This document shows positions 1 through 41,653 of a stretch of DNA of 64,000 nt, one piece after another. The notes under the pieces are model-generated. The model saw only the letters and a list, made by a program, of their open reading frames with translations, did not search any database and had not been told where the DNA came from. Location: positions 55,118,001 through 55,182,000 of the forward strand of contig OZ024741.1 in assembly GCA_964016885.1 (NCBI GenBank). The letters run 5' to 3'. The stretch comes from Eledone cirrhosa (Eukaryota). Numbering within the stretch: the first letter of the stretch is position 1; each line of letters starts with the position of its first letter. Made by a program: the position numbers and the translations under genes.

Positions 1-1443
1 TCTTCAAAAAGTGAAATAAGTCCCTTGCAGTGAACTACCGTCCGATCTCACTCACCTCTCGTATTATCAAGGTATTTGAGAGGGTGGTGAGATCACGAAT
101 AACCCACTTTCTTGAAAGCAACGGCCTGCTGAACTCCAACTAACATGGGTTCCGTAATGGAAAGGACTGCCTAACGCAGCTCCTGCATCACTTTGACGAC
201 GTTTTGAGAGCCTTGGGAGAGGGCTCCAACACTGATGTCATCTACCTTGATTTCAGCAAGGCCTTCGACAGGGTTGATCATAAGATTCTACTGAAAAAAC
301 TATCCAATGTTGGTGTCTCTGGAAGGTTACTACAGTGGATCAAATGTTTCCTGACAGGCAGAACCCAGCATGTTGTATTCGAAGGAGTAGAATCAAGCCC
401 TGCCAAAGTCCGCAGTGGCGTCCCACAGGGCACTGTGTTGGGTCCACTTATTTTCATCATCTACATTAATAACATTACTGACATCATCAAACACAGTAAC
501 ATCAGAATCTTCGCAGATGATTCCAAGCTCCAAAGGGTCATCAATGAGGTGGGTGACCGGACTTGCCTTCAGTCAGACCTACTGGCTGTTATCCAATGGG
601 CAGAGATGAATAATATGCTGTTGAATGAGGATAAATTTGAACTAATCCACTTTGGAAAAAAGGATGCTCTGAAACTACCATACTCTCTTCCTTCGGGTGA
701 AACTCTGGTGACTTCCAATAACATCAGAGACCTGGGAGTAATTGTGAACAACAATATAAGCTGGGCCACGCATATAAACAGCAAAGTTGATATGGTCCGC
801 AGAATGTGTTCCTGGATTCTCAGAACTTTCCAGTCGAGAGATATCCACACTGTTATCCTTCACTTCTCCCCTTTTGCCAGACCCCACCTTGAATACTGTT
901 GTCCACTGTGGTCACCCCACACGAAACAAAGTATCATGAAAGATGAAGCACCCCAAAGGTCAATTATAAAAAAGATAGTTGGCATGACAGGCCTTGACTA
1001 TTGGGGTCGATTAGAAAAGCTCAAACTTTATTCTCTTCAACGTCCCCGTGAGCACTACATTATCTGTATGATGTGGAAAATATTCCATTAGGTTAGCCCA
1101 AATGATGTTGGCATCATCTTTAGTGTACACGCAAGGCTTGGGCCCCATGCTATCCGCCCAGGACAAAAATCCCACTCGCATTACATAAGAACAATACGGC
1201 ACAATTATTTCACCTCAATTGGCCCTGCACTCTTTAAGATTACACCAAAACACATCAAAGCAGAGACAGACCCCATCAAGTTCAAGAAGTCTTTGGATAA
1301 ATTCCATCAAGAAATCCCGGATAAGCCTCCTACACCCGGATATGCCTCCGTAAAGAATAACAAAGACTTCGCCAGATGGTGCTATTAAGTTAGACATGGC
1401 CTGGACCAATACTGGCCGAAACCTATCAAAGTTATCAAAGTTA
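1..1443 (+). mobile_element. CR1-clade LINE, 3' part (RT, pseudogenised), runs off window start
   Basis: ORF 204-1091 has RT motifs YLDFSKAFD, GVPQGTVLGP, FADD. Upstream NYRPISLTS and HGFR are interrupted by a stop near 141, and there is a premature TAG at 1089-1091. The end is a tandem ATCAAAGTT tail followed by (TA)n. Confidence 0.9.
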
Positions 1444-1445
1444 TA

Positions 1446-1503
<58 letters not shown>

Positions 1504-1508
1504 CATAA

Positions 1509-1545
<37 letters not shown>

Positions 1546-1546
1546 C

Positions 1547-1579
<33 letters not shown>

Positions 1580-1585
1580 CATATA

Positions 1586-1696
<111 letters not shown>

Positions 1697-1736
1697 GATA
1701 TTAAATAAATGGAAACTATATTTATAAAACCATATT

Positions 1737-1802
1737 TATTTCATTATATATATTTCAGGGATATCATATTAACAATATGTTATGCCTTCTTCAGACAAAA
1801 TA
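1737..1802 (-). ncRNA. Minimal type-I hammerhead ribozyme (inverted copy, family A)
   Basis: Reverse complement of 4173-4238. Confidence 0.75.
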
Positions 1803-2640
1803 CAATATAGACAGTTTTATAGATAAATAGATTTGACATACCGTTCAACATCGACTTGTATTTGAAAAAGTTGATTTGGCAGTGAAAAATTGTAAACAGA
1901 AAGAAAGAAAGAAAGAAAGAAGGAAAGAAAGAAAGAAAACGAAGAAAAAGAAGAAAAAGAAGAAATGCATGCAACAAAATAGAGAGATGGAAAGATAGAT
2001 AAAGAGAAGAACTTCATGTAAAGAAACAGAGAGAGATATATAGAGAGAGGAAATAGATAGAGATAGATATATATAGAGAAAAGTAGGTAGTTGAACGACG
2101 TATCAATGATACATTTATTTATTTATTTATTTATTTATTTAGCTCTAGTATTAATGTAAGGGAGATATATGTGGTTAGGAAAGAAACCAGCCGTTATATA
2201 GAGAGAAAAATGAAAAGTAACCAGACATAGGCGAGGCAGAATTTAAAAACCCTATGTTTTAATGTAGAAATATTAGTTCGTATAAAAACCAGGCATTATA
2301 ATGTAAATATCAGTATTCCTGAATGAGACACGTATCTATAATGTGTGAAAAGTAATGATCTTATGTCTAGTTTTAAAAATTCATATGTTTATATGATAAC
2401 TACAAACATCGATGTGAATTTACGTGATCAACTCTGCAAACCCCTATTTTACACGGAGAACATTCTCATTGTGCTATAAAAATTTAAGTATACATATATG
2501 TGTATATATACACATATATATAGAGTCTATATTAATTTTAACAATACTATTCTTGTCTTTACTCTACATGATTATCTATCAAGCAGAAATAGAGAACAGA
2601 TTTCAATATATTAATAAAAATATCAGAAACAAAAACAAAA

Positions 2641-2721
<81 letters not shown>

Positions 2722-2723
<2 letters not shown>

Positions 2724-2862
2724 GACATGTGACCTCTGCGCGGAGGAGATATTCTTTATACTAAAATCTAAAAATTCCCTTAATCTACGGACAAATTTAT
2801 TCAGTTGCTGCAAACATAGATTGAACTCAACTTTTAAATATAAATTTAAATTTAAAATGTAG
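2722..2862 (+). pseudogene. C-terminal remnant of PLE GIY-YIG endonuclease
   Basis: My translation KTCDLCAEEIFFILKSKNSLNLRTNLFSCCKHRLNSTFKYKFKFKM* aligns to the end of ORF 7936-10296 (CRLCSQELFEIMKSKDILLNKRQELIISCNHKLRKTFKY). Confidence 0.85.
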
Positions 2863-4172
2863 TATATTTAGTTTGATTTGTAATTATTTGGGAAACTAGC
2901 CGATAAATCTTTCGATTTCTTCTTTTTCTTTTTATTTTTATTTTAAACATTCTTCATGAAAAATTAAACTACCCTAAAAGTTGATGCTCCAAATATATCG
3001 AATAAACGTTACACTAGATAAACTTCTATATTAAATATAAGAACATATGTAGACCAAATGGGCATCCTAAACTTTTGAAATGATTTCTGCTAGACGCGAT
3101 TTGGTAAATAATTTTTAGCTTTATCTGTTTTCGACTCTGATGCTTATAATGAACTTGGCAATATATTGTCAATTAATTTTGAATGGTTGATCTTTGTGGT
3201 CGATTTGCGTGGCATATTATGTTTTTATTTTTATTATTTTAATATTTTTTTAATATTTTTAATATTTTCATTTTTAATATGTAATATTTTTTAGTTTTAT
3301 ATTTTATTTATTTGTTTATTATTATTATTATTATTATTTTTTGTTTTTGTTTCTGATATTTTTATTAATATATTGAAATCTGTTCTCTATTTCTGCTTGA
3401 TAGATAATCATGTAGAGTAAAGACAAGAATAGTATTGTTAAAATTAATATAGACTCTATATATATGTGTATATATACACATATATGTATACTTAAATTTT
3501 TATAGCACAATGAGAATGTTCTCCGTGTAAAATAGGGGTTTGCAGAGTTGATCACGTAAATTCACATCGATGTTTGTAGTTATCATATAAACATATGAAT
3601 TTTTAAAACTAGACATAAGATCATTACTTTTCACACATTATAGATACGTGTCTCATTCAGGAATACTGATATTTACATTATAATGCCTGGTTTTTATACG
3701 AACTAATATTTCTACATTAAAACATAGGGTTTTTAAATTCTGCCTCGCCTATGTCTGGTTACTTTTCATTTTTCTCTCTATATAACGGCTGGTTTCTTTC
3801 CTAACCACATATATCTCCCTTACATTAATACTAGAGCTAAATAAATAAATAAATAAATAAATGTATCATTGATACGTCGTTCAACTACCTACTTTTCTCT
3901 ATATATATCTATCTCTATCTATTTCCTCTCTCTATATATCTCTCTCTGTTTCTTTACATGAAGTTCTTCTCTTTATCTATCTTTCCATCTCTCTATTTTG
4001 TTGCATGCATTTCTTCTTTTTCTTCTTTTTCTTCGTTTTCTTTCTTTCTTTCCTTCCTTCTTTCTTTCTTTCTTTCTGTTTACAATTTTTCACTGCCAAA
4101 TCAACTTTTTCAAATACAAGTCGATGTTGAACGGTATGTCAAATCTATTTATCTATAAAACTGTCTATATTG

Positions 4173-4238
4173 TATTTTGTCTGAAGAAGGCATAACATAT
4201 TGTTAATATGATATCCCTGAAATATATATAATGAAATA
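4173..4238 (+). ncRNA. Minimal type-I hammerhead ribozyme (family A pseudo-LTR)
   Basis: Stem I TATTTTGT/ATGAAATA; core CTGAAGA (4181-4187); stem II AGG..CCT; GAAA (4219-4222); palindromic mini stem III T-ATAT-A, then UA. Predicted cleavage after 4230. Confidence 0.8.
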
Positions 4239-4365
4239 AATATGGTTTTATAAATATAGTTTCCATTTATTTAATATCGTAAATATACTCCAAATACTTG
4301 TTGAGTGCTTTTATATCAGTTATAAATATTTACTAGTTGTAACCCAACAATTTAAATATAACTTT

Positions 4366-5150
<785 letters not shown>

Positions 5151-5173
5151 GTATATATATATGTATATATATG

Positions 5174-5245
<72 letters not shown>

Positions 5246-5295
5246 TGTATATATATATATATGAATATATATGTATATATATATGTATATATATG

Positions 5296-5328
<33 letters not shown>

Positions 5329-5366
5329 GTATGTATATATATATACATATATATATATATACATAC

Positions 5367-5495
<129 letters not shown>

Positions 5496-5586
5496 CATAT
5501 ATATACACATATATATATACATATATATATATACATATATATATATATACATATATATATAAACATATATATAAATATATATATAC

Positions 5587-5679
<93 letters not shown>

Positions 5680-5684
5680 CATAT

Positions 5685-5747
<63 letters not shown>

Positions 5748-5801
5748 TAAAAAAAATAATGAATAAAACAATGAAACAGTTCCTTATATTAAACAAAAAA
5801 G

Positions 5802-5955
5802 TTCATTATTTAACGATCGTTTCTAGGATATATATGTGTTAGAATTGGCATGCATATTCAACAGATCTATGTACAAAATTATACAAAATTATACAAACTA
5901 TCAAAATTAAATATACATACCAACACATATATATGCCGTCTTCAGAAATAATGAA
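5802..5955 (-). ncRNA. Hammerhead ribozyme (inverted copy, family B)
   Basis: Reverse complement of 14143-14296. Confidence 0.65.
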
Positions 5956-6556
5956 ATATATTTATTGATAATAACAACAATTCAAAATTACAGGTCTGTT
6001 TGGGAACAGAGTTCAAATTGACCAATGAAAACACAAAAAGTTTATACAGTTAGGTGTATGTATATATGTAAGTAACTTCGGGCACAGATATGCATAAAAA
6101 CATATGTTCACATGCATACGCATGCCGAAAAGATGTATGTAAATACAAAAATTCAGGGCTAATGTCTCTGTATGTTTATAATCTACAGATAAAATACGTA
6201 TACGCATATAAACACATAAATATAAAAATAAATATATACACATTCATATACTCACACATATACATACATTCACACACACACGCGCGTATACGCATAAACA
6301 TACACACAACCACGAACATACATACACACACACACCCCCACACACATATATGTGTATATACTATTATCATAAGCATATGGACATTAATGCGCGCACATAA
6401 ACACTGCCACACATATTTAGATCCAGATACAGAAAGTAGGTGGGGGGGAAGAGGTCAGTATTTACCGGTGTCAGCAAACTGCCTATTTATAAATGTATCT
6501 ATAAATTTAGAAATAAAAAGAAAAAAGAAAAATATTAAGAAAACATATATATATAC

Positions 6557-6646
<90 letters not shown>

Positions 6647-6686
6647 AAGTAAAATATAAAATATACATCGATATACATACATATAC

Positions 6687-6719
<33 letters not shown>

Positions 6720-6924
6720 CACATACATACATATGCATACACATATACATAAACACATACATACACATACATATACATACACACACCATATAAATACATA
6801 TACACATACACACACGCATACATATAGAGACACATACATATACATATATAAATACATAGACATATACATATATACACACATATATATATACACATACACA
6901 CATAGATATATATATACATTCACA

Positions 6925-6977
<53 letters not shown>

Positions 6978-7050
6978 TATATACACATATATCTATACAC
7001 ATATATAAACACACTCATGTATATACACACATACACATACATACCCACAC

Positions 7051-7084
<34 letters not shown>

Positions 7085-7154
7085 ATACACACATATACAC
7101 ATACACACATACAAAGATATATATATATATATACACACACACACATATAATATA

Positions 7155-7191
<37 letters not shown>

Positions 7192-7650
7192 TATATACAT
7201 ATATATACACATATATATATATATATATATACACATACATACACATACATACTCATACATAGATATACATATATACACACACACACATACACACATACAT
7301 ATACGCATATATACACATACATACACATCCATGTATGCGTATACACATATAAACACAACCACACGCTCACATAACTCAGACATACATAAATAAAGGGATA
7401 TACATACACATATATACATATATAAATAGAGATACATATACACATATAAATATATACACACATACACACACACACATATACATACACACACATACACACA
7501 TACATATATATACACACACATACATATACATATATATATATATATATATACATATATATATAAAAATAAAGAAATAAAAGAAATAAATAAATAAATTAAT
7601 TAATACACACAGTCAGACAAATATGCACACACATACATATACACACATAT

Positions 7651-7681
<31 letters not shown>

Positions 7682-7725
7682 CATACATATACATACATAT
7701 ATATATACACATACACACATCAACT

Positions 7726-7763
<38 letters not shown>

Positions 7764-7935
7764 AAAGTTATATTTAAATTGTTGGGTTACAACTAGTAAA
7801 TATTTATAACTGATATAAATGCACTCAACAAGTATTTGGAGTATATTTACGATACTAAATAAATGGAAACTACATCTACAAAACCATATCTATCTCATCA
7901 TACATACCTCAGGGACATCACACTAACAATATGTT

Positions 7936-10296
7936 ATGCCCTCCTCAGACAAAATACTGCCAAATCAACTTTTCAAATACAAGTCGATGTTGAACGGTAT
8001 GTCAAATCTATTTATTTATAAAACTGTCTATATTGTATTTTGTCTGAAGAAGGCACAACACTCTTTGCTTGAAGACTTTGAGAAAGACCTTTTTAATTTA
8101 ATTAAACACCTCAAATTTAAGAAGTATAAATCTGTCTTTCAAAAGGACCTTGATTCTACCCTATTTGACCTAAAAAAGTCTAAAAAAATCCATGTCCACT
8201 CGGACAAAACTCGTAACTTGTATCACATGGATATTGAAGATTATAATGAGTTCATATATAAAGAACTCAGGAAAAATTATAAAAAATCTAATAATGCGTC
8301 ACTCACCAACATCAACAACAAAACACACAACATAGTAAAAAAACTAAACATTGAAGATAGAACTGAACCTTTGGCATTGAAAAGACCACACTTCAACCTG
8401 AAGGATCATAAATCAAACTTTAACTCAAATCCTTCTATAAGACTTATATGTCCCTCCAAATCTGATATTGGAATAATTAGCAAAAAAATTTTGGATAGAG
8501 TCATCCCACAAATAAGAAAACACGTTAATTTACCACTCTGGGAAAACACTTCCCAGGTAATTAACTGGTTTAAAAATATTAGATGTAAATCTTCTGCTTC
8601 ATTTCTACAATTTGATATAGATAATTACTATTCTTCTATATCACCTATACTCCTGAACAAAGCATTGATATTTGCTAAAAATAGATCTAACTTAACTTTG
8701 GATGACATTAATATTATTACACATGCTAGACTAACACTTATTGAATTTCAGAATGAATACTGGACCAGAAACACATATAATTATCTATTTGATATTACTA
8801 TGGGTTCAAGCGATTCCGCCCAAATTACTGATCTTGTGGGCCTCTTTCTCCTTTTCAACATAAATGCCTCCTTTCCCCACCTTAAAGGTGGTTTATATCG
8901 TGATGACTGTCTTCTTCTTTCCAACAACCTTAGCCTTTCAGAAATAGAAAAAAACAAAAAGCATATTAGAACTTTCCTTAAAGACTATTATAGTCTTCAT
9001 ATTACTTTTGAAAAAACAAGTAAAGTAGTAAATTTCCTAGATATAACTTTAGACTTAGCTACGGGTATCTACCAACCTTACCATAAACCCAACCAAAACT
9101 TACACTACATACACTCACAATCTAATCACCCTAAATCTATCCTTAAAAACCTTGCATATAATATATCACTTAGAATTTCTAACCTTTCTTCTAACCAAGA
9201 TGTATTTGATAAAAATGCGACCTTCTATAACGAAGCTCTAGATAGAAGTGGCCACAAAAATAGATTAGAGTATATACCTTCTACTAAAAATACTATAAAC
9301 ATACAACCTAATATTACCAACAAACACCAAATGAAAAGTACACACCTAAATGCCACCCACATTATACCCCAAAATACCAACAACTCTTCTAATATAAAGT
9401 ATAGTAACTCTCAAAAAACTACTCATCATACAACTCTAATAAATGTTAATAATAAAACCCCTAATAAACAAGATAAAACACCTAAATCTATAAATCTAAC
9501 TAAAAATGTGCGTGGTGAGATCATTAACATTAATCCTCCTAGTAAACATCACGATACAACCTATAAAAATAATAAACAACATAGAAACCGTAATAGACGA
9601 GTTACTTGGTATAATGCTCCATTTAATTTACAAATTAAGGATAATATTGCTAAAAAAATTTTTTGTATCCTAGAGAAAAACTTCCCGCCAAACCACAAAT
9701 ACCATCAAATCTTAAATAGGTCTACAGTTAAATTCTCATACTCAACAACCAATAACATAAAACAAAATATAAGTGCCTATAATGCATATAAATGTAAGAA
9801 TACCATAAGTATACCACCAATACATCAAACTAACCATAATATCTCCTCAAATACAGAATTAACGAAAGGTTGTAACTGTAGAAACAAAGCAAACTGCCCA
9901 TTAAAAGGAAATTGTCTTGTTAACAACATAGTTTATAAATGTAATGTTAAAACTAAAGATTCTATTTGCTCATATATAGGAGCTACTTCTAACAATTTTA
10001 AGGTAAGGTTTAATACCCACAAACATAGTTTTAAAAATGCCGCACTGGCTAATACAACATCTCTAGCAGAAAAAATCAATAGTTATAAAAATAAGAATAT
10101 AGAATATGATATGACCTGGAGTGTGCTCAAAAGAGCCACCCCTTATCAAAATAATAGAAATGAATGTAGATTATGTTCCCAAGAACTATTTGAAATAATG
10201 AAATCTAAGGATATCCTATTAAATAAACGACAGGAATTAATTATATCGTGTAATCATAAACTAAGAAAAACATTTAAATATTATAAACCTAATTAA
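7936..10296 (+). CDS. PLE reverse transcriptase plus C-terminal GIY-YIG endonuclease; genuine coding sequence starts ~8062 (5'-truncated)
   Basis: Motifs SDKTRNLY, LKDHK..PSIRLICP, QFDIDNYYSSI, TMGS, LYRDD, FLDITL, YHKP; linker CNCx5Cx5C; IVY..YIG, RFNTH, CRLC..E, LLNKR..CNH. No stop in 786 codons. The first ~42 codons derive from the inverted repeat. Confidence 0.93.
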   Translation: MPSSDKILPNQLFKYKSMLNGMSNLFIYKTVYIVFCLKKAQHSLLEDFEKDLFNLIKHLKFKKYKSVFQKDLDSTLFDLKKSKKIHVHSDKTRNLYHMDIEDYNEFIYKELRKNYKKSNNASLTNINNKTHNIVKKLNIEDRTEPLALKRPHFNLKDHKSNFNSNPSIRLICPSKSDIGIISKKILDRVIPQIRKHVNLPLWENTSQVINWFKNIRCKSSASFLQFDIDNYYSSISPILLNKALIFAKNRSNLTLDDINIITHARLTLIEFQNEYWTRNTYNYLFDITMGSSDSAQITDLVGLFLLFNINASFPHLKGGLYRDDCLLLSNNLSLSEIEKNKKHIRTFLKDYYSLHITFEKTSKVVNFLDITLDLATGIYQPYHKPNQNLHYIHSQSNHPKSILKNLAYNISLRISNLSSNQDVFDKNATFYNEALDRSGHKNRLEYIPSTKNTINIQPNITNKHQMKSTHLNATHIIPQNTNNSSNIKYSNSQKTTHHTTLINVNNKTPNKQDKTPKSINLTKNVRGEIININPPSKHHDTTYKNNKQHRNRNRRVTWYNAPFNLQIKDNIAKKIFCILEKNFPPNHKYHQILNRSTVKFSYSTTNNIKQNISAYNAYKCKNTISIPPIHQTNHNISSNTELTKGCNCRNKANCPLKGNCLVNNIVYKCNVKTKDSICSYIGATSNNFKVRFNTHKHSFKNAALANTTSLAEKINSYKNKNIEYDMTWSVLKRATPYQNNRNECRLCSQELFEIMKSKDILLNKRQELIISCNHKLRKTFKYYKPN

Positions 10297-10779
10297 TAAC
10301 ATTATTTTAGAAATTAATATATAATTTAATTTAAATGTTAGTTAACCTATAAATTTAATTTAATTAAAATTCTACTACAGATGAGATTATAAAATATTGT
10401 GTAATCATAAATTGTGAAAAACTTTTAAATATTACTAATATATACTTCGTAAATTAATTTATAGATTAATTTTAATTTATTTAACCTTTTATTAAAATTC
10501 CTTTACAGATTAAATATAACAAAATATCGTGTATTCAATGACAGAGAAATATTTTTTAATATTATAGACCTAATTATTGTACATTTTAGAAATATATTTA
10601 TAATTTGGTTTTAATTTGGTTAACCTAAAAATTTAATTTAATTGGCTTAAAATTAAAATCCTAATACAGATGGATTGCAGAGTGTCATGTAATCATAGAC
10701 TGAGATAGGTTTTGGATATATACCTAGTTAATATATTCTTTGCAATTTTTGAAAAAATATGTATATATGTATGTATATG

Positions 10780-10840
<61 letters not shown>

Positions 10841-11230
10841 GTGTGTATATATATATGTGTATATATTAATTTTAATTTCTGTTTACCTATAATTATATTC
10901 TACTATAGATAAAATACAATATCTGTTTTAATTATTATAAACCTAATTAACATATACTATAGAAATTAATATATAATTTTTAATTTAGTTAACCTATAAT
11001 TTATATTCTACTACCGATGTAATACTTTATTTGGTTTTTTTCCCTATTACTAAATTCATTTCCTAATATTGATACCATAACGTTAATAATTTTAATTTAG
11101 TTATACTATAATTAATACTCTACTACTATTTAACTTCAAAATTCCGCTTCAAATATTATAAACCTAAGTAGTATACACCTTAGAAATCAATATATTAACT
11201 ATCTTTAATTTAGTTAACCTATAATTAATA
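10243..11230 (+). repeat. Degenerate ~130-160-bp tandem repeats derived from the ORF end/3' UTR start
   Basis: Recurring motifs (A)TATCGTGTAATCATAAA (10243, 10394, 10524, 10682), TTATAAACCTAATTA, GTTAACCTATAA and TCTACTACAGAT. Confidence 0.7.
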
Positions 11231-11510
11231 GTCTACTTATATTAAAATGCATAATTTTGCCTTCTTTCTTACATTTCCTAATACTGAAACTACTATGTAA
11301 ACACATATTATGATCTAAATGCAGATTAATATTCTATGTTTCTTGAAACCTATATTTACTATAATCCCCTCCCCCCCCCCTATTATTATTTGTATTTGTA
11401 AGCGTGGATGTATGTATGTATATGTAGGTAGGTATGTATGTTTGGGTGTTTGTATGTGAGTATAAAAATACATATGTGCGCATGTAAATAAGGGTGTATG
11501 ATTGTGTGTA

Positions 11511-11575
<65 letters not shown>

Positions 11576-11717
11576 GTATGTATATATATATATATATATA
11601 TATGTATCTATGTATTTATGTGGGTATATGTGTGTATGTATATGTATGCGCATGTATACGTCTATGTGTATATGTGTGTATGTGTATATATGTACGTATG
11701 TGCGCATGTATATGTGA

Positions 11718-11768
<51 letters not shown>

Positions 11769-11769
<1 letters not shown>

Positions 11770-12149
11770 GATATTGAATGAATGGAGGCTGTATTTGTAG
11801 GGCCATGTTTGTTTCATTATATATGTTTCAGGGATGTCATATTGACGATGTGTTGTGCCTTCTTCAGATAAAATACAATATAGACAGTTTTATAAATAAA
11901 TAGATTTGACATACCGTTCAACATCGACTTGTATTTGAAAAGTTGATTTGGCAGTATTTTGTCTGAGGAGGGCATAACATATTGTTAGTGTGATGTCCCT
12001 GAGGTATGTATGATGAGATAGATATGGTTTTGTAGATGTAGTTTCCATTTATTTAGTATCGTAAATATACTCCAAATACTTGTTGAGTGCTTTTATATCA
12101 GTTATAAATATTTACTAGTTGTAACCCAACAATTTAAATATAACTTTCC

Positions 12150-12150
<1 letters not shown>
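11769..12150 (+). mobile_element. Family-A pseudo-LTR mini-insertion (inverted + direct copy forming a hairpin), A-to-G hypermutated, nested in a (TA)n tract of the element B 3' UTR
   Basis: 11769-11954 matches 1696-1883 and 11955-12150 matches 4173-4368. The 32 A>G differences are confined to the paired arms. Confidence 0.9.
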
Positions 12151-12181
<31 letters not shown>

Positions 12182-12225
12182 AGTTGATGTGTGTATGTGT
12201 ATATATATATGTATGTATATGTACG

Positions 12226-12262
<37 letters not shown>

Positions 12263-12757
12263 ATATGTGTGTATATGTATGTGTGTGCATATTTGTCTGA
12301 CTGTGTGTATTAATTTATTTATTTATTTATTTATTTTATTTCTTTATTTTTATATATATATGTATATATATATATATATATATGTATATGTATGTGTGTG
12401 TATATATATGTATGTGTGTATGTGTGTGTATGTATATGTGTGTGTGTGTATGTGTGTATATATTTATATGTGTATATGTATCTCTATTTATATATGTATA
12501 TATGTGTATGTATATCCCTTTATTTATGTATGTCTGAGTTATGTGAGCGTGTGGTTGTGTTTATATGTGTATACGCATACATGGATGTGTATGTATGTGT
12601 ATATATGCGTATATGTATGTGTGTATGTGTGTGTGTGTATATATGTATATCTATGTATGAGTATGTATGTGTATGTATGTGTATATATATATATATGTGT
12701 ATATATATGTATATATATATGTATATATATATATATATATATATTTATTATATTATA

Positions 12758-12788
<31 letters not shown>

Positions 12789-12820
12789 CTTTGTATGTGT
12801 GTATGTGTATATGTGTGTAT

Positions 12821-12907
<87 letters not shown>

Positions 12908-12975
12908 GGTATGTATGTGTATGTGTGTATATACATGAGTGTGTTTATATATGTGTATAGATATATGTGTATATA

Positions 12976-13012
<37 letters not shown>

Positions 13013-13217
13013 TGTGAATGTATATATATATCTATGTGTGTATGTGTATATATATATGTGTGTATATATGTATATGTCTATGTATTTATATATGTATATG
13101 TATGTGTCTCTATATGTATGCGTGTGTGTATGTGTATATGTATTTATATGGTGTGTGTATGTATATGTATGTGTATGTATGTGTTTATGTATATGTGTAT
13201 GTATATGTATGTATGTG

Positions 13218-13252
<35 letters not shown>

Positions 13253-13292
13253 GTATATGTATGTATATCGATGTATATTTTATATTTTACTT

Positions 13293-13344
<52 letters not shown>

Positions 13345-13369
13345 GTATATATATATGTTTTCTTAATAT

Positions 13370-13582
13370 TTTTCTTTTTTCTTTTTTCTTTTTTCTTTTT
13401 TCTTTTTTCTTTTTTCTTTTTTCTTTTTTCTTTTTTCTTTTTTCTTTTTTCTTTTTTCTTTTTTCTTTTTTCTTTTTTCTTTTTTCTTTTTTCTTTTTTC
13501 TTTTTTCTTTTTTCTTTTTTCTTTTTTCTTTTTTCTTTTTTCTTTTTTCTTTTTTCTTTTTTCTTTTTTCTTTTTTCTTTTT
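13370..13582 (+). repeat. (CTTTTTT)n heptamer expansion
   Basis: About 30 perfect units. The mirror site in the left arm (~6515-6532) has about 2. Confidence 0.9.
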
Positions 13583-14142
13583 ATTTCTAAATTTATAGAT
13601 ACATTTATAAATAGGCAGTTTGCTGACACCGGTAAATACTGACCTCTCCCCCCCCCCCACCTACTTTCTGTATCTGGATCTAAATATGTGTGGCAGTGTT
13701 TATGTGCGCGCATTAATGTCCATATGCTTATGATAATAGTATATACACATATATGTGTGTGGGGGTGTGTGTGTGTATGTATGTTCGTGGTTGTGTGTAT
13801 GTTTATGCGTATACGCGCGTGTGTGTGTGAATGTATGTATATGTGTGAGTATATGAATGTGTATATATTTATTTTTATATTTATGTGTTTATATGCGTAT
13901 ACGTATTTTATCTGTAGATTATAAACATAGAGACATTAGCCCTGAATTTTTGTATTTACATACATCTTTTCGGCATGCGTATGCATGTGAACATATATTT
14001 TTATGCATATCTGTGAACGAAGTTACTTACATATATACATACACCTAACTGTATAAACTTTTTGTGTTTTCATTGGTCAATTTGAACTCTGTTCCCAAAC
14101 AGACCTGTAATTTTGAATTGTTGTTATGATCAATAAATATAT

Positions 14143-14296
14143 TTCATTATTTCTGAAGACGACATATATATGTGTTGGTATGTATATTTAATTTTGATAG
14201 TTTGTATAATTTTGTATAATTTTGTACATAGATCTGTTGAATATGCATGCCAATTCTAACACATATATATCCTAGAAACGATCGTTAAATAATGAA
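14143..14296 (+). ncRNA. Type-I hammerhead ribozyme with long stem II (family B pseudo-LTR)
   Basis: Perfect 10-bp stem I TTCATTATTT/AAATAATGAA; CTGAAGA 14153-14159; stem II ATATATATGTGTTGG/CTAACACATATATAT with imperfect closing pairs; GAAA 14275-14278; palindromic ACGATCGT, GUU triplet. Confidence 0.7.
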
Positions 14297-14490
14297 CTTT
14301 TTTTGTTTAATATAAGGAACTGTTTCATTGTTTTATTCATTATTTTTTTAATATTTTATCTTGACTCTGTATTCCGTTTATCTTTCACCGAAAGTGATTT
14401 TTCATTGCATCTCTTCTTTCCATGATATCCGGATTACATTGAGTTCTTCATACGGATTGGACACTACCGTAAACTCTTGGTAGATTTATC

Positions 14491-14547
<57 letters not shown>

Positions 14548-14707
14548 CGAATTAGTATATCTACCAACATATTTATACAAAAGTATACTTATGCTAGCAA
14601 GATATTGGTTTTGTCTTAGTAACTTTGTGGTTCAATACAAAAATGTACAACAATTATATGAAAGACGTAAAATAAGAAAATTATAATAATTAACTTACTT
14701 AAGTTTC

Positions 14708-14787
14708 ACTCCAACTAATTAGTTTCTGAAAGGAGATATACATAGTGTTTTCAAAACCATGGAGAATTCCTTTCTTCATCAGGGAGT
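14708..14787 (-). ncRNA. Type-I hammerhead ribozyme (family C pseudo-LTR)
   Basis: Minus strand reads ACTCC-CTGATGA-A-GAAAGGA...TCCTTTC-A-GAA-ACTAATTAGT-T-GGAGT: perfect stem I, 7-bp stem II, palindromic stem III. Confidence 0.8.
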
Positions 14788-14970
14788 CAATTCTCTGCTA
14801 AGATCCCTGGCGATAGGCGGACACCGGGATCATATATATATATACACATATATATATATATGTATATATATATATATGTATATATATGTATATATATATA
14901 TATGTATATATATGTATATATATATATTTATATATATATATGTATGTATATGTATGTATATATATATATA

Positions 14971-15184
<214 letters not shown>

Positions 15185-15446
15185 TATATAAAGAATGAAT
15201 AATAACAGGTAGACATCATAAAAAGATAATTTATTCTGTGTGCTTACAAATGTTTCCACGGTGGTTATACACCCTAGTTATGCTATGTGCAAATTTATAA
15301 CTATTTGCAAAACTCAATTATCAAATGCTGTGACAAATGTATCATCGGGGCAGAATGGTTAAAATGTAAAATGTAAATACCCTTAAGTGAGGTTATTGGG
15401 GAAGATGGAGTAGAAAAGGAAGAAAGAAAAGAGGGGCGAGGGAGCG

Positions 15447-15545
<99 letters not shown>

Positions 15546-15947
15546 GGGGTTGGAGAAATGGGAGAGAGTGGTTTGTAGATATCTTAATCAAAATGTTGTG
15601 GTAGGGGTTTTATTATACTGGTTACTCTTAAAGCGACCACCTTAAGCGATGCGTTGATAGTCAAGGTTGGAATTATTTATTTCCACAGAGGGCAAGTTCA
15701 TAGATGTGGAGAGGGAGGGAGGTGAACCTAGGGCGAGAGAGAGAGAGTGAGAGGGAAATGGAGAGAGAGGGAGAGATAGAGAGGGGACAGACGAAAGCTA
15801 TGGGATGGGTGTACATTGAGTTCATATTAGTAGGCTACAAATTGCACTAAGTTTCCATTTATAGTGATAAGCAGGGTATTGTCTTGTAGTGTGGGGGAAG
15901 AGAAAGTGGTTAGCTAGAAAGCGATGTTATAGTTACGGGTTCGAATG

Positions 15948-17632
15948 TTAAGTTATTTTATAGTGAGAGAATTTAGTCTTCAGTTTGTGGTTGCAGTATA
16001 ATGATCGTTCGATTCTATCATTTAGTAATTTATTTTTGGATTTTAAGATGTAAAAGAGTTCAAGGTTACATAACCTACAGTACTTCAATCCATTCCGATA
16101 TGCACTAGCGCTGGAAAGTATATCCCATTTCAAGGTGAACTGTTGGTTCCGTTCACGGAGTTGCCAGGTCTTGTTGGCGATCGTGGTCACAAAACGGTGA
16201 TTAGGATGTTTAATTGAGAATCGATGACGATACCAGCGAGATTTAAAGGAGGTAGTGGTAGACCCGATATAATACCATTTCTGGTCGTTCGATTCAACAG
16301 TGCATTGGTAAACAATGTTCGACTTTAGGCATTTATTCTTCAATGGACATCTTTCTGGTAGGTGGCAGTTACAGTTTTTGTTGTGGTAGCGGGTATACAT
16401 ACCATGGATAGGTTGGGATAGCATTACAGGTGGGTTCTGTAATACCCGTCTCCCGTTTAGTGGTTGGGAGGCCGATATTACGTTATGCTCATCTGTTATT
16501 AAAATATTTTGTTTTGTAGTGTTGTTTAATTGCTTTAAGTTAAGTTTTTTTATGTATGCTTCAAGGTTTGGTGCCGTGGAGTATGATAGTTTAATAGTTT
16601 TAGAGTTCAGAATTTTACTGTATTTATGGGAACTAGGGAAATGCTTGTTGATTAACTTAAAAAATGAAAGAGATAGTTTTGTACTAATCGAAGCATTAAA
16701 AATGGGGTTATACCAGATATACTTTCTACAACGTAATTTATTTGGTGATGATTTTCTATTATTAGTACCTTTGGTGGTACTGCGTGTGTGCGCTTGTATT
16801 TCAGTACCCCGGTTACGTATACTTTGATTCCGTGTAGAGCTATGTGTGTTATGGAGATTCTTATCAATGTATTCTATTGTATTCCGGTGGTCGTCATTCC
16901 TTAATGCATTATTATAGTATTCAGCATGTTCACTGAAAATCTCAGAGTCAGACGATAGACGAGAGATTCTAAGAGAAATACTATGGGGAACCGATTTGAT
17001 CATGAAAAGTGGGTGGTTTGAGTTAAAATTGATATAGGTAAGGTTCTCATTTATCTTGTGGAAGGGTCGTATCAGTCCGGTATTTAAATTAAGAGTTACG
17101 TCTAGAAAATTTACTACTTTAAGATTGTATTCGTACGTTATTTTTAGACCCAGTTCGCTAAAAGATTTTCTAACGTTTTTCCGTAGCCTTTCAAGATTTT
17201 GGTTATTTAAGTTATTAACTAATAAGAGCCCGTCATCTCTATATATTCCCCCCTGTAGGTTACTAAATTTACCATGTAGTATGTGGGCTATGTAAATTCC
17301 CACAAGATCGGTGACCTCCGCTGAGTCGTTGGAACCCATGGTGATGTCGAAGTTTGTGGGTCTGTCCTTACGTTCCCAGTAGCAGTTATCAAACTTGATA
17401 ATAGTTTTTCTAGCCTCTATAATAATATTAATGTCGTCCTCCGTTAGGTCGGAATTGACTTTAGCAAACGATAGGGCCCTACGTAAAGTGCCGGGTGAGA
17501 TTGAAGAGTAGTATTCGTCTATGTCAAGTTGTATAAATTTAGATTTATTCTTGTTCTTAACGTTATTAAACTAGCGAATTGCTTCGCTAGTGTTGCCCCA
17601 TAATTTAATTTCTATTTTCTTTTTCAATTGAG

Positions 17633-17633
<1 letters not shown>
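15948..17633 (-). pseudogene. PLE RT + GIY-YIG, one in-frame stop
   Basis: ORF 15948-17339 has MGS, IYRDD, FLDVTL, CNCx5Cx5C, IVY..YIG and CRLC. The frame extends upstream (LWGNTSEAIR*FNNVK..IQLDIDEYYSSISP) with TAG replacing the conserved Trp near 17572. Confidence 0.9.
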
Positions 17634-17712
<79 letters not shown>

Positions 17713-17848
17713 CAAGTAAGTACGTTTTGAAACAGTGAGCAAGTTTGAAATTAGAAAATAGAATAGCTTTCACCGTATTTTTGACTAAAGAAATTTTAGC
17801 CTGTTAATGGGGTTTAGAACCCTCAGATAAATGGAAAAAGATGAGTAT

Positions 17849-17919
17849 TGACGTACATGGGAGTCGAACCCACATCTTTGGTTATCCAGACCACTGTGCT
17901 ACCATTACACCAACACATC
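17849..17919 (-). ncRNA. tRNA-like sequence (mirror copy)
   Basis: Exact reverse complement of 17925-17995. Confidence 0.7.
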
Positions 17920-17924
17920 ACCCT

Positions 17925-17995
17925 GATGTGTTGGTGTAATGGTAGCACAGTGGTCTGGATAACCAAAGATGTGGGTTCGACTCCCATGTACGTCA
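17925..17995 (+). ncRNA. tRNA-like sequence (SINE head or tRNA pseudogene)
   Basis: Cloverleaf GATGTGT-TG-GTGT-AATGGTA-GCAC-A-GTGGT-CTGGATA-ACCAA-AGAT-GTGGG-TTCGACT-CCCAT-GTACGTC-A, with A box TGGTGTAATGG, B box GGTTCGACTCC and T5 ~10 nt downstream. Non-canonical: T37, GGA anticodon without a Ser long variable arm, and a Gln-like D arm. Confidence 0.7.
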
Positions 17996-18077
17996 ATACT
18001 CATCTTTTTCCATTTATCTGAGGGTTCTAAACCCCATTAACAGGCTAAAATTTCTTTAGTCAAAAATACGGTGAAAG

Positions 18078-18249
<172 letters not shown>

Positions 18250-18259
18250 ATATGTATAC

Positions 18260-18364
<105 letters not shown>

Positions 18365-18429
18365 TACATATATATGTATATATATATATCGTGAGAGAGA
18401 CTTGGGACATTTAATAATCTGTACTGATA

Positions 18430-18680
18430 TCTATATGTATAAAAGCAAGTCGGTCTGTGGGTGTGTCTGTCTGTCTGTCTGTGTACAAATACTAGGCTCC
18501 TTTTAAATTTTAGAAATACTAGGCCGATTTGGCACGTGCTATTGAGGCGACCTCTCATTGGCTAGCCAATTAGCTGACATAAGGTGACATGCACTCAGAA
18601 ATTGCTAGCTAAGCCATAAACGACCTTGAACAATTCAGGATGTTATTCATTTCCCGAGCAACGCCGGGTACATTTGCTAG
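18430..18680 (+). mobile_element. Non-autonomous Helitron
   Basis: A|TCTATATGTATAAA 5' end, (GTCT)n, 3' hairpin CCCGAGCAACGCCGGG, 8-nt spacer, CTAG|T. Confidence 0.8.
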
Positions 18681-18955
18681 TCTATCTATATGTCTATATT
18701 ATCCATTTAAAATACTTTTCTATTCCTATCTGTCTTTACTTTTTATTTTTCTGGTTGTCTGTCTGTCTATCTATTTATCTATCTATCAATCGATTTCTCT
18801 ATTAATCCATCTATCTATCGATCAATCAATCCGTCTCTCTGTTACCGCATCCATTTGTTTATCGAACTGTCTGCCTGACTGTCTGCAACTTTTCTTCTTC
18901 AGTGTATAGTGATAAATTGAATATTATTAATAATGATGTATGAGGTACTGTGTTG

Positions 18956-19031
<76 letters not shown>

Positions 19032-19074
19032 ATGAATGTGTGTATATATATGTATGTATGAATGTATATATATA

Positions 19075-19155
<81 letters not shown>

Positions 19156-19185
19156 TGTGTGTATATATATGTATGCATGAATGTG

Positions 19186-19277
<92 letters not shown>

Positions 19278-20545
19278 TTATATATAAACATATTTCCGCA
19301 CAAACACGTTTGTATGTAATATATATATATATATATATATATGAATGAACGTACATGACTATGTAAGTGTATATATATGCATGTACATATGTATATATGT
19401 ATGTATATAAGTATATAAGTATAAATATCTCCATATAGATCTATCTGTTTACAGTAACATTAATTGTTGTCGACAAGTAGTTTATGGCTGATCATAAAAC
19501 ATCCGCCATTGCCACCGCCACCGCCAAAACCATAATAACCAACAAACTCAAACGCTGCTGTGTTAATCAAGGAAATCCGTAACTACACGAAACTAGCGCC
19601 TCCTGTCGAGCAGAAAGATAAAAGAAACCAAAGCTACTACACTCACACATAAATAGTGTGGCCTCTCTTGGTTGAAACAGTAAACTAAGTCTCTCTAGAT
19701 TAACAACTGTTGGTATGAAAATTTAGTAGACATGAAGAGATGAGAGAAAGAGGGCGATGATAAACAGAGAGAAATACCAGGAGAAACAGAGAGAGAAAGA
19801 GAGAGAGTGATGATAATCAGAGGGCGGGCCATAGAGAGAGAGAGAGATGGGGATGATAAACAGAAAGAAGGAGAGAAAGAAAGAGAGTGGCGGGATGATA
19901 AACAAAGAGAAGGTGAATGAGAGAGATGGATGGGGAATAAACGGAGAGAACGAGAGGGAGAGAGAGGGTAAGAATGGGAGAGATTGGATGATAAACAGAG
20001 AGAGGAACAGAGAGAAAGAGAGAGAGAGAGAAGTATAGACAGAGAGAAAAAGAGCGAGAAAAGAAAGTGAGTAGGCAATAATGGGAGAGGACAAGGAGAA
20101 TGAGAGAAAGAGTGATAATAAAGAGAGAGAAGAGTGGGCTGGAAGGGAGAGCGTTGTTTGGTGACCAGACATTTGTCCGTTTTCCTGACTATGTCTAGTC
20201 TGCTAGTGTATGTGTAATTGTGTAGTTGTATGCGTGAGTATATGAATGATTTAGTGCGCGTGTGTGTGAATGAGTTAGTATGTCAGTACATGTTTGTGTG
20301 TGTACATATGTATATACGTGTATGTGAGTGTTTGTGTGCGGGCGTGAGTTAACGTGTGTGTGGGTGTGTATGTCTATATCTGTATGTGAGTGTGTGTATG
20401 TGTTTGCGTGTGAATGCATGTGTGTGTCATTGATGCCATAACTCCCCTTCCTGTTACATGATTGTTGTTGCATTTGTTGTTGTTGTTGCTTATGATGTAT
20501 CTATGTATATATATATATGTATATATATATATATACATATATAAA

Positions 20546-33781: not shown

Positions 33782-33977
33782 TATATATATATATGCATAT
33801 ATATATGTAAACATATATTTATATACATATATATATATACGTATATAAATCTAATTATATATATATATATGCATACATATACATATATTTATATATGTGT
33901 GTGTATATGTGTATATATGTATATATATATATATATGTATGTGTGTGCGTGTGTGTGTGTGCGTGTGTGTGTGTGTG

Positions 33978-34722
33978 GACAACAACATAAGCTGGGCCAC
34001 TCATATAAACAGCAAAGAAGACATGGCCCGCAGAATGTGTTCCTGGATTCTCAGAACCTTCCAGTCGAGAGATATCCACACTGTTATCCTTCTCTTCTCC
34101 ACTTTTTCCCGACCCCACCTTGAATACTGTTGTCCACTGTGGTCTCCCCACACGAAATAAAGTATCATGAAAGTTGAAGCACCCCAAAATCGATTACAAA
34201 AAAGATAGATGGCATGACAGGCCTTGACTATTGGGGTCGATTAGAAAAGCTCAACCTTATTTCTCTCCAACGTCGCCGTGAGCGCTACATTATCTGCATG
34301 ATGTGGAAAATATTCCATCAGCTTTACCCAAATGATGTTGGCATCACCTTTAATGTGCACTCAAGGCTTGGGCCCCGTGTTATCCGCCCACGACAAAAAT
34401 ATCACTCGCTTCACATAACAACAATATGGCACAATTATTTCACCTCAATTGGCCCTGCTCTCTTTAAGATTACACCAAAATACATAGAAACAGACTCCAT
34501 CAAGTTCAAGAAGGCTTTGGACAAATTCCTTCAAGAGATCCCGGATAAGCCTCCGACACCCGGATAAGCCTCCTACACCCGGATATGCCTCCGTAAACAA
34601 TAACTCTCTGCTCGAGTGGGCCATGGTGCCCAAACCCTGATTTGTAAGACTTCGCCAGGTGGTGGTATTAAGTTAGACATGGCCTGGGCCTATAGTGGCC
34701 GAAACCTATGAAAGTTATCAAA
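33978..34722 (+). mobile_element. Second 5'-truncated copy of the CR1-clade LINE
   Basis: High similarity to 748-1443, a 20-bp internal tandem duplication at 34541-34582, and the same AAAGTTATCAAA tail. Confidence 0.9.
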
Positions 34723-34809
34723 TATATATATATATATATATGCATATATATATATAATATATATATATGCATATATACATATATATATATGTATATATAT
34801 ACATATATA

Positions 34810-34853
<44 letters not shown>

Positions 34854-35118
34854 TAACTATATATATATATATAAAATAATAAAATGTGGAGAGGAAGCAC
34901 ACGAGTTAGGATATATATATATATATGAAAACAGGGAGAAAGAGACGATTATGAGGAAGAAAAATATATTTTTTTCCTTTTTTGTTTCTCTCTCTTTTCT
35001 GGGTTAGAAAATGATTAAAACGAAATGTTTTACTTTGTGTGAAGTGTTAAGGTATTAGTTGATTTATTTATTATTTAACAATGGCATTTATTTATCTATT
35101 TATATATTTAATTATTGT

Positions 35119-35160
35119 CTATTACCGGTTTCAGCATTTATATGCATTATCAAATGATAG
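35119..35160 (-). ncRNA. Hammerhead-like motif with U3-A8 core variant
   Basis: TTGATAA-TGCAT-ATAA-ATGC(T/A)-GAA-ACCGGT-A-ATAG. The same core is in the inverted copy at 36321-36355. Stem I is weak. Confidence 0.5.
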
Positions 35161-35570
35161 TGAAATGTATTAGTGTGGTGTCGCACATGTTAAACAGAAG
35201 GTGCAGAAAGAATAATGTTATATACAAACAAGTTTTAAGAAGTGAAAAGAAAAAAGAAAAAGGAAAAAAAAAACGTGCATAATGTGGAACGTAAAAAGTC
35301 AATGTGGAAGAAAAAATAATATTATTTACAAGCACAGTCATTGAAGTTAAGCAGTTCAAAATGTGTTAATATCGCAAGAGTGCTTAGTTGAACCATAGTT
35401 CCGTGAAGGAGGCAAATGGTGGACTGTGGTTTGATATGATTTCCTTTTTAGAGAGTTAATATGCAGGGGGAAGCAATTCTTGCTGGGTGATATTAATTTA
35501 TTTAAGAAAAAGAATTAGGTAAGGTGTGAGGGAGGTAACTCTTGTAAATGTTTGATAATTTGTTGCAGTT

Positions 35571-41602: not shown

Positions 41603-41652
<50 letters not shown>

Positions 41653-41653
<1 letters not shown>

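What the first reader, a model, noticed from the sequence alone, without database searches (positions are those of the whole stretch)
11769..12062. ADAR A-to-I hyper-editing fossilised in genomic DNA by a Penelope-like RT
Seen: arms 11769-11876 and 11954-12062 form a ~108-bp hairpin. Against the unedited copies (1696-1803, 4173-4280) I count 17 A>G in arm 1 and 15 in arm 2, both on the + strand, which is the sense strand of element B. The only other stem change is one C>T. The 77-nt loop and the 88-nt tail have no A>G. No changed A has a 5' G (all follow T or A, one follows C), while GA dinucleotides are spared. Each new G sits opposite a retained T in the partner arm, so A is ancestral. Established: ADAR acts on duplex RNA, disfavours a 5' G, and RT reads inosine as G; coleoid cephalopods edit RNA extensively. 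Inference: an edited transcript was reverse-transcribed and integrated heritably, making RNA editing a source of genome sequence change.
Basis: partly seen in the sequence, partly recalled or inferred. Interest (0 to 1): 0.95.

Follow-up and report, generated by a model that had tools for sequence, protein, structure and literature searches.

The report
Heritable ADAR edits in octopod retrotransposon
An RNA hairpin carried inside an active octopod retrotransposon was heavily rewritten A-to-G, most likely by the RNA-editing enzyme ADAR, copied back into DNA, multiplied, and appears to have gained more such changes in later rounds of copying, so RNA editing has become inherited genome sequence.

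Summary
Observation confirmed: 17+15 A>G on one strand in the two arms, none in loop or tail. The hairpin is a fold-back fragment of one Penelope-like family (A; 4711 exact unedited arm matches), inserted in the 3' UTR of another, active family (B). 28 of 29 genomic matches to its junction are edited and one is unedited. 29 of the window's 32 changes are inherited from a founder. Across 29 copies, 22 of the 57 remaining stem adenosines later became G, against 3 of 86 stem T>C and 2 of 62 loop/tail A>G, and these gains follow the element's tree. Seven other stems in five loci show the same one-strand signature, with 5' neighbours T 33%, A 23%, C 11%, G 1%. Loop or tail sequence is changed where it is paired. 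The host encodes an ADAR2 95% identical to octopus ADAR2. Public reads neither confirm nor refute it. Best reading: ADAR editing fixed by reverse transcription over repeated retrotransposition cycles.

The parts
11768..11876 (+). Hairpin 5' arm (family-A terminal sequence), 17 A>G and 1 private C>T
11877..11953 (+). 77-nt loop; 0 of 29 adenosines changed to G in any of 29 copies. The same sequence has 8 of 28 A>G where it is paired (L140)
11954..12062 (+). Hairpin 3' arm, 15 A>G
12063..12150 (+). 88-nt family-A tail, unpaired and unchanged here; changed A>G where it is paired (L161, L162)
8062..10296 (+). 5'-truncated ORF of Penelope-like family B (RT with YRDD, Cys-rich linker, YIG-type endonuclease motif); full-length copies have an 830-aa frame
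10297..11767 (+). B 3' UTR upstream of the hairpin; ends in the (TA)n tract into which the hairpin inserted (empty tract in sister copies such as L086 and L088)
12151..14494 (+). Rest of the B 3' UTR (TA/TG simple sequence), the terminal repeat (about 13558-14359) and a ~135-nt end piece absent from the inverted copy, followed by (TA)n
5739..8061 (-). Inverted, 5'-attached copy of the B 3' end (matches 11850-14359); 7761-8061 repeats the hairpin part with identical edits
1695..4368 (+). Unedited family-A insertion (1-kb inverted arms plus tail), used as the reference state; not the parent of the B hairpin

Best explanation
Step 1 (shown by comparing copies): a short, 5'-truncated fold-back copy of Penelope-like family A landed in a (TA)n tract in the 3' UTR of an active copy of family B, putting a perfect ~109-bp stem in B's transcript. 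Step 2 (inferred from the signature): host ADAR deaminated about a third of the stem adenosines in one transcript (29 founder sites). Step 3 (inferred; that RT reads inosine as G is established knowledge): B's RT copied that RNA and integrated it in the germline. The 5' inverted repeat is made from the new cDNA at each insertion, so it carries the same edits. Step 4 (shown as a pattern, cause inferred): the edited copy stayed active. Fixed G still pairs with U, so the stem persisted (-166 vs about -180 kcal/mol for the unedited sibling), and daughter lineages gained further A>G in later rounds, up to 38 G in one copy. The same route operated independently at least five more times on other A-derived hairpins. 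No function or selection is claimed: this is a mutational by-product of ADAR surveillance of dsRNA.
For: One strand, both arms: 32 A>G, 0 T>C. 28 of 29 junction matches edited, 1 unedited; 4711 unedited arm matches. Later gains: 22 of 57 remaining stem A, vs 3 of 86 stem T>C (p=7e-8) and 2 of 62 loop/tail A (p=1e-6) in 29 copies; vs 35 of 1509 A in ORF/UTR controls for the first 24 copies (18 of 57, p=2e-14). A tree built without stem adenosines groups all hairpin copies (support 96); 10 shared later sites need 32 steps against a shuffled mean of 71, minimum 54. Within-insertion inverted pairs: 0 edit differences in 7 of 8 pairs, vs mean 5.7 between insertions, while junction positions differ among insertions. 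Paired/unpaired controls: L140 (a B copy with a different 188-bp hairpin in the same tract) is changed in the segment that is loop in the window; L161 and L162 are changed in paired tails. Seven stems from five other loci: 188 A>G, 5' T 104/320, A 69/305, C 14/130, G 1/101, p=1e-10; G depletion upstream is the conserved ADAR motif (PMC5625713 passages). No A>G bias in the ORF: 5 of 345 A vs 13 of 274 T>C. Host ADAR2 deaminase exons carry the CHAE, PCG and SCSDK motifs and are 95% identical to octopus ADAR2.
Against: No RNA data and no read-level confirmation: in RAD-seq run X16 nearly all reads show A at the arm-1 sites (for example 3279 of 3281 at 11825), and no listed piece spans the edited hairpin. 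These runs may be another species or individual, and RAD coverage is patchy. 5'-G avoidance is modest for the founder (0 of 9 vs 29 of 76, p=0.025) and lost among later gains (4 of 9 GA sites changed somewhere: 19, 199, 235, 249). The 3' neighbour in the pooled stems favours G/C (33-35%) over A/T (18-19%), whereas PMC5625713 reports A enrichment for invertebrate hyper-editing. Six founder sites read A in single copies or a few copies, and several later sites recur in separate clades, which recombination or conversion could also produce. Many tree nodes have weak support, and coverage is uneven because of 5' truncation. The independent loci were picked with patterns requiring one A>G, so they are enriched, not a census. 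No unedited B-plus-founder-hairpin master was found.
Confidence: 0.76

Rival explanations
1. ADAR plus RT acted once (or on a few transcripts of an unedited master). The later variation comes from recombination or template switching among copies, conversion by the thousands of unedited arms, and ordinary mutation, not from repeated rounds.
For: Founder sites read A in some copies (9, 69, 236, 237, 265, 289). A40G, A250G, A210G and A257G recur in several clades. Later gains do not avoid a 5' G.
Against: 22 distinct new A>G sites, 11 of them seen in single copies, are far above the local T>C and loop rates. Gains nest inside clades defined by non-edit markers, for example 38/103/104/249/250 on top of 6/40/210. 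No unedited master was found.
Confidence: 0.13
2. Adenine deamination at the DNA level (ADAR acting on an RNA:DNA hybrid, or on a DNA hairpin or cruciform) rather than on RNA.
For: ADAR can edit the DNA strand of hybrids (cited in PMC12925331 passages). The sequence can extrude a hairpin as DNA.
Against: Editing first-strand cDNA would show as T>C on the sense strand and would not stop at the stem ends. A cruciform offers both strands equally. The observed changes are sense-strand A>G in both B lineages, and unedited stand-alone A palindromes show no skew.
Confidence: 0.05
3. The PLE reverse transcriptase misincorporates C opposite A when it displaces a long stem.
For: RTs are error-prone (general knowledge), and the changes are confined to structured template.
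Against: No A>G excess in the ORF. The graded 5'-neighbour bias T>A>C>>G matches ADAR. A third of adenosines with no other class of error is far beyond any RT error I know of (recalled).
Confidence: 0.03
4. Assembly or polishing artefact, for example edited RNA reads leaking into the consensus.
For: The public runs laid did not confirm the edited lineage.
Against: The pattern sits at about 30 dispersed loci on many chromosomes, inside different flanks, with nested haplotypes linked to non-edit markers kilobases away, and is mirrored as T>C in inverted copies.
Confidence: 0.02

Closest known systems
ADAR-type A>G hypermutation of avian retroviral RNA (Felder 1994; Hajjar and Linial 1995; seen only as cited in PMC12925331 and PMC8586724 passages)
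   Same: A>G clusters in an inverted-repeat region of an RNA that is then reverse-transcribed; about half of the adenosines changed there, a third to 44% here.
   Different: Those are exogenous retroviruses. Here it is an endogenous Penelope-like retrotransposon, fixed in the host genome, amplified to about 30 copies, with lineage-nested further gains.
APOBEC 'DNA editing' footprints in retroelements (PMC2873906 passages)
   Same: A host deaminase leaves clustered, one-class changes in retroelement copies that persist in the genome.
   Different: APOBEC acts on minus-strand cDNA and gives G>A without needing a duplex. This is A>G, sense strand, stem-restricted, and it did not inactivate the element.
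RNA-level hyper-editing of palindromic repeats and of Penelope in lizard (PMC5625713 passages)
   Same: Same substrate class (self-folding repeat, PLE transcripts), same upstream G depletion; octopus is named there as one of the two strongest hyper-editors.
   Different: There the edits are in RNA reads only; here they are genomic and inherited.
Canonical C-terminal-endonuclease Penelope-like elements, Neptune/Nematis type (PMC8557442 passages; PMC11167929 first part)
   Same: Partial tandems, 5' truncation, adjacent inverted 5' copy, a tail at one end only, (TA)n targets, Cys-rich linker before the endonuclease.
   Different: Tails here are about 88 and 135 nt rather than 30-40. No hammerhead was found. 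The clade was not tested by phylogeny.

Membership tests
ADAR A-to-I hyper-editing product | Clustered A>G on a single strand, the transcribed one | tested here: met
   32 A>G, 0 T>C on the ORF-sense strand; same in L140
ADAR A-to-I hyper-editing product | Restricted to long duplex RNA | tested here: met
   loop 0 of 29 A in 29 copies; same sequence 8 of 28 when paired in L140; tails changed when paired in L161 and L162
ADAR A-to-I hyper-editing product | Depletion of G 5' of edited A | tested here: met
   founder 0 of 9 (p=0.025); seven other stems 1 of 101 (p=1e-10); not held by the later gains (4 of 9)
ADAR A-to-I hyper-editing product | 3'-neighbour preference as reported for invertebrates (A enriched) | tested here: inconclusive
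   pooled stems G 26/78, C 36/103, T 72/371, A 54/304: not A-enriched; closer to the G/C preference I recall for vertebrate ADAR2
ADAR A-to-I hyper-editing product | Host has a catalytically plausible ADAR | tested here: met
   four A_deamin loci in G000; one has CHAE/PCG/SCSDK and 95% identity to octopus ADAR2
ADAR A-to-I hyper-editing product | Inosine or RNA-DNA mismatch seen in transcripts; dependence on ADAR | not testable with these tools
   no RNA holder listed
Penelope-like element, EN+ (element B) | Single ORF with RT followed by a GIY-YIG endonuclease | tested here: inconclusive
   motifs visible (YRDD; C-x-C...CPL...C linker; YIG; CRLC...CNH); Atlas feature hits 0.96-0.98 to clusters carrying HTH_animal, DUF8422 and GIY-YIG; but no Pfam RT or GIY-YIG hit and no PDB relative
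Penelope-like element, EN+ (element B) | Partial tandems/pseudo-LTR, inverted 5'-truncated copy, tail at one end, microsatellite target | tested here: met
   ~6.7-kb tandem units on C1 and C6; terminal repeat upstream of the ORF in L095, L097, L098; inverted copies with variable junctions; (TA)n flanks
Penelope-like element, EN+ (element B) | Hammerhead ribozyme in the terminal repeat (common in canonical PLEs, not universal) | tested here: not met
   no hammerhead among 120 Rfam matches up to E 1 in window 1-20000
Neptune/Nematis clade | Placement by RT phylogeny | not tested
   only the Cys-rich linker resembles the motif described in PMC8557442

The most novel reading that the evidence does not exclude
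In this octopod germline, ADAR works as a recurring, structure-directed mutagen of active retrotransposons. Inosine is fixed as G, G.U pairing keeps the stem alive as a substrate, and each retrotransposition cycle adds edits: a ratchet that defines subfamilies, counts transposition generations and records germline ADAR specificity in the genome. The same route may have helped turn the (TA)n tracts of these UTRs into one-stranded TA/TG compound repeats. My test of that last part gave no support, and I put it at about 0.15.
Probability: 0.6. Interest if true: 0.9.

Novelty: new variant of a known kind. Interest (0 to 1): 0.8.

Why it matters
[quoted passage not shown] Here is a subfamily defined by an ADAR-type burst, with an unedited sibling, sister elements lacking the hairpin, built-in paired/unpaired controls and a tree of later gains. 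It makes the RNA-editing-to-genome route testable from DNA alone. It implies ADAR activity in germline or early embryonic cells of a coleoid, a group whose editing is studied mostly in neural tissue (my recall). It also gives a reference-free scan (one-strand G.T skew between hairpin arms) usable in any genome. It is a neutral by-product as far as shown; nothing here indicates write-back of edits into host genes.

Tried and rejected
DNA search of G000 with 4172-4368 returned nothing because common words are skipped; exact patterns were used instead. The idea that the UTR's TA/TG simple sequence is fossil editing of (UA)n was not supported: minority alleles among 34 and 32 copies of two segments were A>G 52 of 240 A, G>A 64 of 206 G, T>C 28 of 463 T, so A/G exchange is high but shows no net direction towards G; slippage can explain this. 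Public reads: no RNA holder listed; best share of words 0.61. One 393-nt contig of depth 5 in X1 (run kind not recorded) appears to keep G at six edited positions while differing at 11 others, a hint of a differently edited hairpin, not evidence. Pfam, PDB and a pairwise comparison did not confirm B's domains. Rfam gave only tRNA-like and microRNA-like chance matches. Of 31 candidate loci fetched (L138-L148, L154-L173), five gave clear two-armed signatures (L138, L139, L141, L161, L162) besides the B-borne L140; three were founder-subfamily fragments (L171-L173); four were near-perfect palindromes with 3-14 mirrored changes (L155-L158), compatible with editing followed by fold-back but not tested statistically; the rest were ordinary variants. 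Rows dropped before counts: L084 (same locus as L083), four inverted partners and the unedited L072; L070 and L071 are a tandem pair at one locus and were both kept. The window's other palindromes show no significant skew. The junction microhomology at 8061 (2-6 nt) was examined and not used as evidence. Ten literature searches found no report of ADAR edits fixed and accumulating in a retrotransposon lineage; the library lacks most subscription journals, so absence from print is not shown. Papers seen: passages of PMC8557442, PMC5625713, PMC4982230, PMC8586724, PMC2873906, PMC526178, PMC12925331 and bioRxiv 10.64898/2026.07.22.740005 (nothing relevant in the last); first quarter of PMC11167929. 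Hajjar and Linial 1995 and Felder 1994 were not seen. No supplements were read.

Full report
Observation. The counts are right. Against the unedited arms at 1696-1803 and 4172-4280, arm 1 has 17 A>G plus one C>T and arm 2 has 15 A>G. The tail is identical. The loop has no A>G but one G>A and a 1-nt deletion. All changes are on the + strand, each new G faces a T, and the 5' neighbours are T 17, A 14, C 1, G 0 with 9 GA sites available. The region folds as one uninterrupted ~108-bp RNA stem (-166 kcal/mol, z -18).

Anatomy. The hairpin lies in the 3' UTR of element B, which spans about 5739-14494. B consists of an inverted copy of its 3' end (5739-8061, matching 11850-14359), a 5'-truncated ORF (8062-10296), a simple-sequence UTR, a terminal repeat and an end piece present on one side only, all between (TA)n tracts. 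The family is young and abundant: the 131 best-scored candidates are 97-100% identical, many have an 830-aa frame, and some lie in ~6.7-kb tandems. This layout matches the description of Penelope-like elements in PMC8557442 (passages). Pfam and PDB did not confirm the domains; the Atlas feature search points to HTH_animal/DUF8422/GIY-YIG clusters. Sister B copies have an empty (TA)n tract where the hairpin sits, so the hairpin is an insertion. Its sequence is the end of a second family, A: arms of A flank PLE-like ORFs 40-47% identical to B in 4 of 30 sampled loci, and an unedited 36-mer of the arm occurs 4711 times. A is therefore the ancestral base. The host genome (3.0 Gb) has four A_deamin loci, one an ADAR2 with intact catalytic motifs and 95% identity to octopus ADAR2, so the host is an octopod-like coleoid.

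It is a lineage, not a single locus. The loop/arm-2 junction has 29 exact matches in the genome; 28 are edited and one, in unrelated flanks, is not. Five more insertions were added. In the 29 copies kept (dropped rows are listed under Tried and rejected), 29 sites are G in nearly all, and the window has these plus three more (11807, 11970, 12017). Beyond the founder set, 22 of the 57 remaining stem adenosines are G in at least one copy, against 3 of 86 stem T>C and 2 of 62 loop or tail A>G; ORF/UTR controls gave 35 of 1509. A tree from ORF, UTR, terminal repeat and non-adenosine hairpin columns unites the hairpin copies (support 96). On it, ten shared later sites need 32 changes against 71 for shuffled labels (minimum 54 in 1000). 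Sets nest: 210, then 6, then 38/103/104/249/250 in one clade; 203/257, then 199, then 81 in another. Some sites recur across clades, and many nodes are weak.

Where in the cycle the change is fixed. The inverted 5' copy begins at a different place in each insertion, so it is made anew each time, yet it repeats the edit pattern of its own 3' copy: 0 differences in 7 of 8 pairs, against a mean of 5.7 between insertions. The edits were therefore present in the template or first-strand cDNA before the inversion was copied (inference). Editing of that cDNA would appear as T>C on the sense strand, which is not seen, so RNA is the simplest substrate.

Independent events and natural controls. Patterns requiring one A>G gave 115 and 114 matches, of which 100 each were listed; most are single variants. 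L140 is a B copy outside the founder clade with a different, 188-bp A hairpin in the same tract: 33 one-strand G.T pairs, 8 of them in the segment that is loop, and unchanged, in the window's lineage. L138, L139, L141, L161 (two stems) and L162 show the same two-armed, one-strand skew, and in L161 and L162 the tail is changed where it is paired. Pooling these seven stems without any reference gives 188 A>G with 5' neighbours T 104/320, A 69/305, C 14/130, G 1/101 (p=1e-10). Upstream G depletion is the conserved ADAR motif (PMC5625713 passages); the order U>A>C>G is what I recall for ADARs. A-family palindromes found through the unedited 36-mer show no skew in their arms, and the ORF shows no A>G bias.

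Results against. Public reads did not confirm the lineage. RAD-seq run X16 shows almost only A at arm-1 sites, no listed piece spans the edited hairpin, and no RNA run was listed. The runs may not be the same species or individual. Later gains include 4 of 9 GA sites. The 3' context is G/C-rich rather than A-rich. Six founder sites read A in some copies. The idea that the UTR's TA/TG repeats are edited (UA)n got no support.

Mechanism. Shown: insertion of an A fold-back fragment into B's UTR; stem-restricted sense-strand A>G with ADAR-like context; amplification; nested later gains; copying of edits into the per-insertion inversion. Inferred: that ADAR is the enzyme, that B's own RT fixed the edits, and that the gains are separate editing rounds, made possible because G.U pairs keep the stem (-166 vs about -180 kcal/mol for the slightly longer unedited fragment). 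I put ADAR-plus-RT at about 0.9 and the multi-round form at about 0.76.

Comparison and novelty. It works like the A>G hypermutation of avian retroviral inverted repeats (known to me through two reviews) and parallels APOBEC footprints in retroelements. A 2016 review lists ADAR's role in retrotransposon subfamily evolution as undetermined. Ten searches found no paper on inherited, accumulating ADAR edits in a retrotransposon lineage, within the limits of the library. Three unchecked notes from this scan report similar one-off fossils in LINEs of other genomes; they suggest the basic route is not peculiar to octopods and are not support. What this case adds is the lineage resolution, the internal controls and the repeated rounds. 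Verdict: real; new variant of a known kind; interest 0.8.

Noticed in passing
window 11380-11767 and 12177-13290: The B 3' UTR is TA/TG simple sequence almost without CA on the sense strand (TG 238, CA 8). It could be old editing of (UA)n duplexes, but the polarity test among copies showed no net A>G.
   Followed up: partly
L155-L158 (G000 C4, C14, C22): Stand-alone A palindromes whose tail-side arm has 3-14 A>G at the same hot spots, mirrored as T>C in the other arm, as expected if an edited RNA was copied and then folded back.
   Followed up: partly
L161 614-1573: Two nested hairpins of different families, both with one-strand G.T skew on the same strand, next to a PLE ORF fragment.
   Followed up: partly
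L139 6013-8598, L163 691-2460, L144 962-5850, L108 1265-2123: Further inverted repeats with significant G.T versus A.C skew that were not examined; some include simple-sequence flanks.
   Followed up: no
window 17634-18210: Palindrome with tRNA-like halves (17849-17919, 17925-17995) next to a second PLE-like ORF (15948-17570, minus strand, 52% identical to B over 225 aa); G.T 10 vs A.C 2, p=0.04 uncorrected.
   Followed up: partly
L087 7200-9060 and the small insert near 5900: A B copy carrying an unedited 1-kb-arm A element in antisense plus another short insert in the same (TA)n tract; the UTR tracts are repeated landing sites for other elements.
   Followed up: partly
window 34919-36559: Another inverted-repeat-flanked element with a GIY-YIG ORF fragment (35571-36362); its arms show no skew.
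   Followed up: partly
window 144-1400, 33974-34873, 40138-49854: Several RVT_1 LINE fragments of other families.
   Followed up: no
window 54578-55702 and 56000-64000: A 37-bp tandem array, followed by about 8 kb of extremely skewed composition (GC skew about -0.72, AT skew about +0.57) that looks like a satellite; not read.
   Followed up: no
run X1, record 1: A 393-nt, depth-5 contig that seems to carry a differently edited hairpin of this family in another sample; run kind unknown.
   Followed up: no
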